From assembly GCF_048403405.1 (NCBI RefSeq), contig NZ_CP183129.1: DNA of 64,000 bases; one strand, written 5' to 3'. Source of the DNA: Escherichia coli (lineage in GTDB: Bacteria > Pseudomonadota > Gammaproteobacteria > Enterobacterales > Enterobacteriaceae). The position numbers were made by a program. Every line of letters starts with the position of its first letter. Position 1 is the first letter of the stretch. Positions 6,001 through 9,000 of this stretch are shown here, in pieces.

Positions 6001-9000
6001 ATTGCACTCATAAGCTGTTCCGTTTTGAAAATTCGTGTTCAACGATGAATCTGTGGATAATACGCACATTTCGCCGGAAGTGGTATCCGGTTAGCCAAAA
6101 AGCAGGCAGGACGTGATGGATATTGTATTTATAGAGCAACTTTCGGTAATCACCACTATTGGTGTTTACGACTGGGAACAGACCATCGAACAGAAGTTAG
6201 TGTTCGATATCGAAATGGCGTGGGATAACCGTAAAGCGGCGAAAAGTGATGATGTGGCGGATTGCCTCAGTTACGCTGACATTGCAGAAACGGTAGTCAG
6301 CCACGTCGAGGGGGCGCGTTTTGCGCTGGTGGAACGTGTGGCGGAAGAGGTGGCGGAGCTGCTGTTAGCACGCTTCAACTCGCCGTGGGTGCGTATCAAA
6401 CTCAGCAAGCCAGGCGCAGTGGCGCGGGCGGCGAATGTTGGCGTAATCATTGAGCGTGGCAATAATCTGAAAGAAAATAATTAATTTTACAGCTGTTAAA
6501 CCAAACGGTTATAACCTGGTCATACTGCAGTAGTTCGGACAAGCGTTACATTTTTATAATTTAGGGGTTTATTGATGAGCGATATGCACTCGCTGCTGAT
6601 AGCGGCAATATTGGGTGTGGTCGAAGGATTGACAGAATTTCTGCCGGTATCCAGCACGGGCCATATGATTATTGTCGGTCACTTGTTGGGGTTTGAGGGC
6701 GACACGGCGAAAACCTTTGAAGTCGTGATCCAGTTAGGATCAATTCTGGCAGTGGTTGTCATGTTCTGGCGACGTCTGTTTGGCCTTATTGGTATTCACT
6801 TTGGTCGCCCGTTGCAGCACGAAGGAGAAAGCAAAGGCCGTTTAACGCTGATCCACATTTTGCTGGGGATGATTCCGGCGGTGGTACTGGGGCTGTTGTT
6901 CCACGACACGATTAAATCATTGTTTAACCCGATAAATGTGATGTATGCACTGGTCGTTGGCGGTCTGTTGCTGATTGCCGCTGAATGCCTGAAGCCGAAA
7001 GAGCCGCGTGCGCCGGGTCTTGATGATATGACCTATCGTCAGGCGTTTATGATTGGCTGTTTCCAGTGTCTGGCGCTGTGGCCGGGTTTCTCCCGTTCCG
7101 GGGCGACCATTTCAGGTGGGATGCTGATGGGGGTGAGCCGTTACGCTGCTTCCGAGTTTTCGTTCCTGCTGGCGGTGCCGATGATGATGGGCGCAACGGC
7201 GCTCGATCTCTACAAAAGCTGGGGCTTCCTGACAACCGGCGATATCCCGATGTTTGCCGTTGGGTTTATCACCGCTTTTGTGGTGGCGCTGATAGCGATT
7301 AAAACCTTCCTGCAATTGATTAAGCGCATTTCGTTTATCCCGTTCGCCATTTATCGCTTTATTGTGGCGGCTGCGGTGTATGTCGTATTCTTTTGATGTG
7401 AAGAATAGTGTCGGATGCCTGGAATTGTCCACGATTGCGTAGGCCGGATAAGGCGTTCACGCCGCATCCGGCAATCAACGCCTGATGCGACACTCGCGCG
7501 TCTTATCAGGCCTACAACCGTCGTTGATATGTAGCCGGATAAGGCGTTTACATCGCATCCGGCAAAGTGTCCAACACTCAGTCAGGCTTTGGACAACGTT
7601 GTTCCTTCCAGCTGGCTACCGCCGCAATCCGCCGTCGGGTCAGCTCCTCGCGAATCTCCGCACCTTTAAATCCCGCTTCAACGACGGCTTTTGTCGGCAC
7701 TGACTGTGCCACTTCCCAGGCTTCGCGCAACCAGCGGCCTTGCGGGTAGTCCGCTGATTCAAAACCGGTTCTGCCGCGCACATCAGCCTCGCTGGTCAGC
7801 GCCAGTTGCTCGACACGCTGCGGTTTACGCCAGGCGTCGATGGAATCAAACAATTTGACGATGGTTTTTGGGTTCAGCATTGGGAAGGTGTGGATGAGAT
7901 CGTGAAACTCAGCCACCAGTCTGGCTAAATCGCGAATTTCATTTGGCACGCGCAGACGCTGGCATAGTTGTTCCACTAACTTAACACCCGCCGGGCCATG
8001 ACCATGATGACGCGGCCAAAGTTCTGGCGGCGTCAGTCCTTTACCGAGATCGTGGCATAGCGTTGCGAAACGGACATCGACCTGCGGACTTAGCATCGCC
8101 GCCATTGAGAGCGTCATTAAGGTGTGAATACCGGTGTCGATTTCCGGATGCCACCTGGCAGGGGCCGGAACGCCAAACAGGGCGTCAATTTCCGGGAATA
8201 AAACGCGAAGTGCGCCGCAATCGCGCAGTACCTGGAAGAACACCTGGGGATTGCGGGTGGTGAGGGCGCTTTCCGTCTCTTTCCATACCCGTTCAGGCGT
8301 CAGGTGTTCCAGTTCACCCGCATGGGTCATCTCGCGCATCAGTGCCAGAGTTTCATCGGCAATACGAAAACCGAGGTGGGCATAACGCGCAGCAAAACGC
8401 GCCACGCGCAATACGCGTAACGGATCTTCGCCAAAAGCGGGGGAAACATGGCGCAACAGACGATTTTGCAGATCGCCCAGACCGTTGTACGGGTCGATAA
8501 TCTCGCCGTTATCGTCCTGGGCCAGCGCATTAATGGTCAGATCGCGACGCTTAAGATCATCTTCCAGCGTGACATCCGGTGCGGCATAGCAGGTAAAACC
8601 GGTGTAACCGGAACCGGATTTCCGTTCAGTACGTGCCAGCGCATACTCTTCATGCGTTTGCGGATGCAGAAAAACAGGAAAATCGCGGCCTACCTGCTGG
8701 TAGCCCGCGTCGAGCATCTCCTGTGGCGTACTGCCGACCACCACCCAATCTCTGTCTTTGACCGGTAGCCCTAACAATGCATCCCGAACAGCACCACCGA
8801 CCAGATAAATCTTCACGCCATCATCCCTTCGTCAAATACACAATTCCTAATAATAAGACAGTGCAATGAAGAAGGCGATTTAGTTCATCCAGCGATCTTT
8901 GCGTTTGCGGCTTGGGATCAGGTGCGGCAGTACCAGACCGAGCAGCAAGCCAAGCCCCAGCACGCCGCCGCCATACATAAACCATTGCATGATGATGGTG

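What the first reader, a model, noticed from the sequence alone, without database searches (positions are those of the whole stretch)
7400..7570. BIME (three REP palindromes) between uppP and cca
Three REP elements in alternating orientation fill the convergent uppP/cca intergenic region, where they probably act as transcript-stabilising and terminating structures. This is an ordinary feature. It is recorded because it accounts for the short ORF-track entries at 7485-7749.
Basis: partly seen in the sequence, partly recalled or inferred. Interest (0 to 1): 0.15.

Follow-up and report, generated by a model that had tools for sequence, protein, structure and literature searches.

The report
Ordinary REP cluster between uppP, cca
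The 181-base spacer between the convergent E. coli genes uppP (bacA) and cca holds three copies of the common REP palindrome in alternating orientation; laboratory strain K-12 has the same cluster at the same place, so it is an ordinary, already known feature.

Summary
The window is E. coli chromosome, 100% identical to strain U1 over 7300-7700. uppP/bacA (6575-7396, +) and cca (7578-8816, -) converge on a 181-bp spacer.

The spacer holds three full REPs:
- R1, 7439-7474: Y type, GTAG on the + strand.
- R2, 7480-7515: Z2 type, inverted.
- R3, 7530-7565: Y type, slightly degenerate.

A decayed fourth REP lies at 7409-7438. Consensus patterns hit only here in 64 kb, with 0 hits expected by chance. 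Each REP folds into a strong hairpin (-14 to -21 kcal/mol). Rfam's Y-linker-Z2 model (naRNA4) scores 77.1 bits against a gathering threshold of 59.5.

Y and Z2 units alternating across short linkers, with no IHF site, make this a BIME-2-type cluster. K-12 has the same architecture at the same locus.

Across 5,426 complete E. coli genomes the spacer is polymorphic:
- About 52% carry this BIME.
- About 22% carry one Z2-like palindrome.
- About 23% carry an unrelated GC-rich hairpin repeat.

So the cluster is dispensable repeat DNA. There is no U-tract terminator. Stabilising or attenuating roles are inferred from the literature, not shown here. The short ORFs at 7485-7749 are spurious, but they are mostly antisense to cca rather than inside the BIME.

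Interest is low and the feature is already known.

The parts
6575..7396 (+). uppP/bacA coding sequence (undecaprenyl-diphosphate phosphatase), with stop codon TGA at 7394-7396
   Evidence: NCBIfam NF001388 at 3e-161, full length. Annotated as bacA in the identical strain U1. 97.4% identical to K-12 bacA.
7409..7438 (.). Decayed REP remnant. It keeps a left half (TGTCGGATGC) but has no stable hairpin.
   Evidence: It is complementary to the GCATCCGGCA arms of R1 and R3 (I11 and I12). Its fold z-score is +0.28. Strain 16843 carries a fuller Z-like REP at this position, and HS4-type strains carry an intact palindrome of -22 kcal/mol.
7439..7474 (+). R1: Y-type REP with GTAG at 7439-7442 on the + strand, a 7-bp foot, an AA/GC internal mismatch and a 4-bp inner stem
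   Evidence: 0 mismatches to the Y pattern. -20.9 / -21.3 kcal/mol, z -4.6 / -5.0. It forms the first hairpin of the Rfam RF02564 match.
7475..7479 (.). Short linker (TCAAC) between the GTAG-distal ends of R1 and R2
   Evidence: Read from the sequence. It is 6 nt shorter than the linker in the Rfam naRNA4 consensus.
7480..7515 (-). R2: Z2-type REP, inverted, with GTAG on the - strand (CTAC at 7512-7515 on the + strand)
   Evidence: 0 mismatches to the Z2 pattern, which has its only hit in the window here. -16.0 / -18.6 kcal/mol. It forms the second hairpin of the RF02564 match.
7516..7529 (.). 14-nt linker (AACCGTCGTTGATA) between the CTAC end of R2 and the GTAG end of R3
   Evidence: Read from the sequence. 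It contains no IHF core motif.
7530..7565 (+). R3: Y-type REP in the same orientation as R1, slightly degenerate. It has a 1-nt deletion after GTAG and two substitutions (7552 and 7553) that weaken the inner stem.
   Evidence: 2 mismatches to the Y pattern. 91% identical to R1. -15.1 / -14.3 kcal/mol. The K-12 copy has an intact inner stem (-21.0). On the cca mRNA strand the stem base at 7563 lies 14 nt after the cca stop codon.
7578..8816 (-). cca coding sequence (CCA-adding enzyme), with its stop codon at 7578-7580
   Evidence: NCBIfam NF008137 at 8.7e-223. Annotated as cca in U1.
7485..7749 (+). Two spurious short ORFs on the + strand, 7485-7703 (72 aa) and 7567-7749 (60 aa)
   Evidence: No NCBIfam family match. 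They are mostly antisense to cca, and the ATG at 7485 lies inside R2 (GCCTGATGCG), so it is absent from the roughly 48% of genomes that lack R2.

Best explanation
This is a BIME-2-type cluster of E. coli REP elements in the order Y, Z2, Y, with a decayed fourth unit. It lies in the shared 3' region of the convergent genes uppP and cca, and it is the ortholog of the cluster at the same locus in K-12.

Shown here:
- The sequence identity, the orientation and the hairpin potential of the three units.
- The dispersed, multi-copy nature of the units across E. coli genomes.
- The presence/absence polymorphism of the cluster at this locus.

Inferred from the published behaviour of the family:
- The units are non-autonomous repeat DNA. 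They are shaped by the REP-associated transposase RayT and by recombination between copies.
- When either gene is transcribed into the spacer, the GC-rich hairpins form at the mRNA 3' end. There they hinder 3'-to-5' exonucleases and partly attenuate read-through into the opposing gene. This attenuation is Rho-assisted, not intrinsic.
- R3 begins 14 nt after the cca stop codon, so it could also stall terminating ribosomes.
- At the DNA level, BIME-2 elements are gyrase sites.

About half of E. coli genomes carry something else in this spacer. Any local effect is therefore modulatory and not essential.
For: - Consensus matches occur only at this site, with 0 expected by chance.
- The three units alternate in orientation and keep the GTAG/CTAC tetranucleotide.
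- Each unit folds into a hairpin with the characteristic internal mismatch, at -14 to -21 kcal/mol and z -3.4 to -5.0. The whole spacer folds with z -5.2 / -5.3 on the two strands.
- The Rfam model of a Y-linker-Z2 pair (RF02564) scores 77.1 bits against a gathering threshold of 59.5.
- The published definitions fit. REPs are 30-40 nt imperfect palindromes with a 5' GTAG and a stem mismatch. BIME-2 is made of y and z2 units with short linkers (PMC3333891) and holds 2-12 Y/Z2 units (PMC1187871).
- K-12 has a 180-bp spacer with the same three REPs, 91.2% identical.
- Locus polymorphism: 2,841 genomes carry this BIME, 1,180 carry a single palindrome and 1,260 carry another repeat. Strain KFu015 shows a clean 91-bp deletion between the direct repeats R1 and R3.
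- Functional literature: REPs act as exonuclease blocks and as partial Rho-dependent terminators, and convergent gene pairs with a REP between them show higher expression (bioRxiv 10.64898/2026.03.23.713779).
- The rule that a REP within 15 nt of a stop codon stalls ribosomes (Liang 2015) was read only as cited in PMC12306157.
Against: - No function was tested here.
- There is no U-tract after any hairpin on either strand.
- The spacer differs in about 48% of E. coli genomes, which argues against a required role.
- The same 2026 preprint reports that REPs do not uniformly change mRNA half-lives.
- The sequence motifs of the BIME-2 linkers (S, s, l, r) could not be compared, because the defining papers are not held.
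- Whether this strain carries rayT was not tested. The gene is present in 3,575 of 5,426 genomes.
Confidence: 0.9

Rival explanations
1. The locus is a gene for a nucleoid-associated small RNA of the naRNA4 type. Under this reading, the segment 7442-7512 is transcribed and processed into a two-hairpin RNA that binds HU and bridges DNA cruciforms to condense the chromosome.
For: The Rfam RF02564 (naRNA4) match at 7442-7512 on the + strand scores 77.1 bits, above the gathering score of 59.5, over the full model length. naRNA4 is by definition a Y-linker-Z2 pair (PMC4550694).
Against: - The model describes the generic Y-Z2 REP pair, so any BIME-2 unit scores. naRNA4 itself comes from REP325 between yjdM and yjdN, which is a different locus.
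- No promoter of its own was found. The only consensus-like site is on the other strand, at a level expected by chance.
Confidence: 0.04
2. The palindromes form a bidirectional intrinsic (Rho-independent) terminator that serves both convergent genes.
For: The hairpins are strong on both strands. Seventy-eight REPs are reported to lie within predicted bidirectional terminators between convergent genes.
Against: There are 0 terminator-like sites in 7200-7800. The longest T or A run in the spacer is 3 nt. Most REPs lack the poly-U tract that defines intrinsic terminators.
Confidence: 0.05
3. The cluster is selfish or neutral repeat DNA with no consequence for uppP or cca. On this reading it simply occupies a permissive convergent spacer.
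For: The spacer has at least four different states among E. coli genomes. The spacer is more diverged from K-12 (91.2% identity) than the flanking genes are (97.4% and 98.1%). R3 in this strain and R1 in K-12 each carry stem-weakening substitutions.
Against: Two of the three hairpins remain near consensus and very stable. The literature reports measurable 3'-UTR effects for some REPs.
Confidence: 0.3
4. The short ORFs on the + strand (7415-7534, 7485-7703, 7567-7749) encode small proteins.
For: They are open reading frames with ATG or GTG starts.
Against: They match no family. Their start codons lie inside or beside REPs that are missing from about half of E. coli genomes. Most of their length is antisense to cca, one of them in the exactly complementary frame, where stop codons arise only opposite the sense codons TTA, CTA and TCA (13 of cca's 413 codons). 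K-12 and U1 annotate nothing there.
Confidence: 0.01

Closest known systems
The cca-bacA intergenic REP cluster of E. coli K-12 MG1655 (NC_000913.3 3203130-3203309)
   Same: It is at the same locus, with the same flanking genes, the same order and orientation of units (remnant, Y, Z2, Y) and the same linkers. The spacer is 180 bp against 181 bp here.
   Different: There are 16 differences (91.2% identity). In K-12 the stem of R1 carries a G-to-A change and R3 is intact. In the window R1 is at consensus and the inner stem of R3 is weakened.
REP325 / naRNA4 (Rfam RF02564), the 12-unit Y/Z2 BIME between yjdM and yjdN
   Same: It is built from the same Y and Z2 palindromic units in alternating orientation. 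The R1-R2 pair matches the model over its full length, above the gathering score.
   Different: The window has three units where REP325 has twelve. The Y-Z2 linker is 6 nt shorter. The window's genes are convergent, whereas REP325 sits inside a tandem operon. The locus is different, so this is a paralogous REP pair and not the naRNA4 gene.
BIME-1 (RIB/RIP elements: Y, the long L linker with an IHF site, then Z1)
   Same: It is also a pair of inverted REPs in a 3' intergenic region.
   Different: The window has Z2 rather than Z1, linkers of 5 and 14 nt rather than the long L motif, and no IHF core motif in the spacer.
REPIN/RAYT systems of Pseudomonas and other bacteria
   Same: These are also inverted REP doublets thought to be mobilised in trans by a domesticated single-copy Y1 transposase.
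   Different: Their REP sequences are species-specific and different. Mobility was not tested here, and E. coli rayT is absent from about a third of genomes.

Membership tests
E. coli REP (palindromic unit) | An imperfect palindrome of 30-40 nt that can form a hairpin | tested here: met
   All three units fold at -14 to -21 kcal/mol, with z -3.4 to -5.0 and 0-1 of 200 shuffles folding as well. The definition is from PMC3333891.
E. coli REP (palindromic unit) | A conserved GTAG tetranucleotide 5' of the palindrome foot | tested here: met
   R1 has GTAG at 7439-7442. R2 has CTAC at 7512-7515, which is GTAG on the - strand. R3 has GTAG at 7531-7534, but it overlaps the stem by 1 nt because of a 1-nt deletion that K-12 shares.
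E. coli REP (palindromic unit) | An internal mismatch (bulge) in the stem | tested here: met
   The predicted structures show a symmetric 2x2 or 1x1 internal loop between the foot and the inner stem in R1 and R2. In R3 the loop is enlarged.
E. coli REP (palindromic unit) | A sequence match to the Y, Z1 or Z2 consensus | tested here: met
   R1 has 0 mismatches and R3 has 2 mismatches to the Y pattern. R2 has 0 mismatches to the Z2 pattern. Both patterns were written from my own knowledge of the consensus. An independent check is the curated Rfam Y-Z2 model, which scores 77.1 bits.
E. coli REP (palindromic unit) | An extragenic location, typically in a 3' region | tested here: met
   The units lie entirely within the 7397-7577 spacer between two convergent stop codons.
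E. coli REP (palindromic unit) | Many dispersed copies in the genome | tested here: met
   The R1-R2 query finds a median of 39 places per genome (capped at 40) in 5,425 of 5,426 genomes. The seven genomes identical to the window show only 10-13 places.
BIME-2 | Built from 2-12 Y and Z2 units in alternating orientation | tested here: met
   The order is Y(+), Z2(-), Y(+). The definitions are from PMC3333891 and PMC1187871.
BIME-2 | The specific linker and flank motifs (S between the REP and the inverted REP; s, l or r flanking) | tested here: inconclusive
   The linkers are short (5 and 14 nt), as BIME-2 requires. Their sequences could not be compared with the published motifs, because Gilson 1991 and Bachellier 1997 are not held.
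BIME-2 | Binding and cleavage by DNA gyrase | not testable with these tools
   This is known for the family (Espeli and Boccard 1997, seen here only as a reference).
BIME-1 | A Z1 unit plus the long L linker carrying an IHF site | tested here: not met
   The inverted unit is Z2 (36 nt, GACACTCGCGCGTC core). There is no WATCAANNNNTTR match in the spacer on either strand.
naRNA4 (Rfam RF02564) | A covariance-model score above the gathering threshold | tested here: met
   77.1 bits against 59.5, E = 6e-12 over the whole window.
naRNA4 (Rfam RF02564) | A product of REP325 (yjdM-yjdN) that binds HU | tested here: not met
   The locus is uppP-cca, not yjdM-yjdN. HU binding cannot be tested here.
Intrinsic terminator | A GC-rich hairpin immediately followed by a U-tract | tested here: not met
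   0 sites were found. The longest T or A run in the spacer is 3 nt.

The most novel reading that the evidence does not exclude
The spacer alleles could act as natural switches for which of the two genes is damped after transcription.

In this allele, and in K-12, a REP hairpin begins 14 nt after the cca stop codon. That is inside the 15-nt range reported to stall terminating ribosomes. The REP next to uppP has decayed.

In the HS4-type allele (about 22% of genomes), an intact palindrome sits about 12 nt after the uppP stop codon and about 36 nt from the cca stop codon.

Lineage-specific turnover of REPs would then tune the level of the CCA-adding enzyme against that of undecaprenyl-pyrophosphate phosphatase, without any change to a coding sequence or a promoter.
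Probability: 0.12. Interest if true: 0.3.

Novelty: already known. Interest (0 to 1): 0.08.

Why it matters
It matters little beyond correct annotation. The finding explains the spurious short ORFs and a likely automated 'naRNA4' label at this site. It also gives a clean example of how one convergent spacer in E. coli is occupied by different small repeats in different lineages. That point was already made for BIMEs in general in the title of Bachellier et al. 1997 (seen in a reference list; the paper itself is not held) and in the 2026 preprint.

Tried and rejected
- I looked for a REP annotation at the K-12 locus. The RefSeq tables for NC_000913.3 and U1 list nothing between cca and bacA. 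That K-12 catalogues this as a numbered REP element therefore rests on my memory, not on a tool result.
- I tried to read Liang 2015, Gilson 1991 and Bachellier 1997. None is held. Liang's 15-nt rule is cited second-hand from PMC12306157.
- Supplement searches for cca or bacA in three papers gave nothing useful. A literature search for this locus together with REP gave no relevant paper.
- The promoter scan found one weak site on the - strand (7431-7402, 9 of 12 matches) against 0.4 expected by chance. I treated it as chance.
- I suspected that the window is REP-depleted relative to K-12. I rejected this for the window itself: the homologous K-12 segment holds the same REP content. That content is this BIME and one REP-like palindrome after parC. 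K-12's yghA-exbD BIME lies beyond the end of the window.
- The other loose matches to REP foot motifs, for example at 14252 and 56893, lie in coding sequence and are chance.

Full report
**What is there**

The window is E. coli chromosome. Bases 7300-7700 are 100% identical to strain U1 (NZ_CP041359.1) and to six other complete genomes, and about 95% identical to K-12.

A 274-aa ORF ending at 7396 is undecaprenyl-diphosphate phosphatase (UppP/BacA; NF001388, 3e-161). A 412-aa ORF on the minus strand, 7578-8816, is the CCA-adding enzyme (NF008137, 8.7e-223). The two genes converge on a 181-bp spacer, 7397-7577.

**Anatomy of the spacer**

| Coordinates | Feature | Notes |
|---|---|---|
| 7409-7438 | REP remnant | Keeps a left half, TGTCGGATGC; no stable hairpin |
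| 7439-7474 | R1, Y type | GTAG on the + strand |
| 7475-7479 | Linker | TCAAC, 5 nt |
| 7480-7515 | R2, Z2 type | Inverted; ends in CTAC on the + strand |
| 7516-7529 | Linker | 14 nt |
| 7530-7565 | R3, Y type | Same orientation as R1, 91% identical, 91-bp spacing |
| 7566-7577 | Tail | 12 nt before the cca stop codon |

**Is it more than chance?**

- A Z2 consensus pattern hits once, and a Y pattern twice, in the 64-kb window. All three hits are at this site, and shuffles give 0.00 expected.
- As RNA, each unit folds into a hairpin with the typical internal mismatch. On the two strands R1 gives -20.9 / -21.3, R2 gives -16.0 / -18.6 and R3 gives -15.1 / -14.3 kcal/mol. The z-scores run from -3.4 to -5.0.
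- The remnant does not fold better than shuffled sequence (z +0.28).
- The whole spacer folds with z -5.2 and -5.3 on the two strands.
- Rfam's naRNA4 model, whose consensus is a Y hairpin, a linker and a Z2 hairpin, matches 7442-7512 at 77.1 bits. Its gathering score is 59.5. R3 alone gives a partial match of 32.9 bits.

**Which kind of BIME**

Published definitions describe REPs as 30-40-nt imperfect palindromes with a 5' GTAG and a stem mismatch.

- BIME-1 is a Y unit and a Z1 unit joined by a long linker that binds IHF.
- BIME-2 is made of Y and Z2 units with short linkers, in 2-12 units (PMC3333891; PMC1187871).

Here the inverted unit is Z2, the linkers are 5 and 14 nt, and there is no IHF core motif in the spacer. 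This is therefore a BIME-2-type cluster. I could not compare the linker sequences with the named S, s, l and r motifs, because the defining papers are not held.

**Comparison with other genomes**

K-12 MG1655 has a 180-bp spacer between cca and bacA (3203130-3203309) with the same units in the same order. It is 91.2% identical to the window, against 97.4% for bacA and 98.1% for cca. The differences include stem-weakening changes in R3 of the window and in R1 of K-12.

Across 5,426 complete E. coli genomes the spacer has several states:

| Genomes | Spacer content | Source |
|---|---|---|
| 2,841 | This BIME, covering at least 80% of 7300-7700. Some, such as strain 16843, have a fuller fourth REP where the window has the remnant. 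| |
| 1,180 | An 80-bp spacer with one Z2-like palindrome (-22 kcal/mol) about 12 nt after the uppP stop codon | |
| 1,260 | A 162-bp spacer filled by an unrelated GC-rich long-hairpin repeat, present at a median of 5 places per genome | |
| At least one (KFu015) | 89 bp; exactly the K-12 spacer minus the 91-bp R1-to-R3 repeat unit | |

The KFu015 state is the product expected from recombination or slippage between the two direct Y copies.

This confirms the dispersed, multi-copy nature of the units. The rayT gene for the REP-associated transposase is present in 3,575 of 5,426 genomes. That agrees with the two-thirds reported earlier.

**How it most likely works**

Shown here: the identity of the elements, their hairpin potential on both strands, their position in the 3' region of both genes, and their dispensability at this locus.

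Inferred from the literature: REP hairpins block 3'-to-5' exonucleases and act as partial Rho-dependent terminators. Convergent gene pairs with a REP between them show higher expression. About 30% of convergent spacers in E. coli hold a REP (bioRxiv 10.64898/2026.03.23.713779).

Intrinsic termination is unlikely. No terminator-like site was found, and the longest T or A run in the spacer is 3 nt.

On the cca mRNA, the R3 stem begins 14 nt after the stop codon. This is within the 15-nt range reported to stall terminating ribosomes (Liang 2015, as cited in PMC12306157). The first intact REP after uppP begins 46 nt from its stop codon.

None of these effects was tested here, and the allele diversity argues that none is essential.

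**Rival readings**

- **naRNA4 gene.** An annotation pipeline could label 7442-7512 as naRNA4. That model captures any Y-Z2 pair. The real naRNA4 comes from REP325 at another locus, and its proposed role in nucleoid compaction was not reproduced in the 2026 preprint.
- **Small proteins.** The + strand ORFs 7485-7703 and 7567-7749 match no family. They begin inside or beside REPs that half of the genomes lack. They run mostly antisense to cca (126 of 219 nt and 172 of 183 nt). One is in the exactly complementary frame, where stop codons arise only opposite the sense codons TTA, CTA and TCA, which make up 13 of cca's 413 codons. The BIME therefore explains only their starts.

**Verdict**

The feature is a known kind of element at a locus where K-12 has the same cluster. 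Interest is low.

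Noticed in passing
L006:198-359 (BL21-type allele of the uppP-cca spacer; not present in the window): In 1,260 genomes the spacer holds an unrelated GC-rich repeat of about 110 nt instead of REPs (GGGAGAGGGCCGGGGTGGGGG...CCCCTCACCCTAACCCTCTCCCC). It folds into one long hairpin (-78 kcal/mol for the whole spacer) and occurs at a median of 5 places per genome. I did not identify its family name.
   Followed up: partly
window 7300-7700 and its exact matches in 7 genomes (U1, TUM14771, GN02461, 4621, MS 69-1, TUM1226, OX030728): The genomes that share the window's exact allele give only 10-13 megablast places for REP-containing queries. The median elsewhere is 37-39, capped at 40. This suggests a lineage poor in REPs or with diverged REPs. 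Within the window itself the REP content equals that of the homologous K-12 segment.
   Followed up: partly
L004 (strain KFu015) and window 7443-7565: Strain KFu015 has an 89-bp spacer. It is exactly the K-12 spacer with one 91-bp R1-to-R3 repeat unit removed, which looks like a clean deletion between the two direct Y REPs.
   Followed up: yes
window 53282-53311: A single REP-like palindrome (GCCGGATGAAACGTTAAGTCGTCATCCGGC, -15.7 kcal/mol) without GTAG/CTAC lies about 40 nt after the 752-aa parC ORF. It is conserved in K-12 at 3163644-3163673.
   Followed up: partly
window 15432-15581, 15808-15957, 19425-19573, 60373-60436: Rfam matches above gathering score elsewhere in the window:
- Two SIB antitoxin RNAs (the sibD/sibE region, with Ibs toxin genes annotated in U1).
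- The FMN riboswitch upstream of ribB.
- ES173 sRNA on the minus strand, between the dkgA-like and yqhD-like ORFs.
   Followed up: no
window about 36055-43247, 44468-45660, 20384-25358 and 48600-49100 (mapped from the U1 annotation): The window's strain differs from K-12 in four ways:
- It carries a siderophore ABC transporter and a TonB-dependent receptor between ygiN and parE.
- It carries an Hcp-family type VI secretion protein and a hypothetical gene between ygiZ and mdaB.
- It carries a fimbrial operon next to ribB, where K-12 instead has ygiL-yqiGHI between ubiK and glgS.
- It lacks mqsRA between ygiS and ygiV.
   Followed up: partly
window 7386-7407: A small AT-rich hairpin (UAUUCUUU...AAGAAUA) spans the uppP stop codon in the predicted fold of the + strand transcript. 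It is probably incidental.
   Followed up: no
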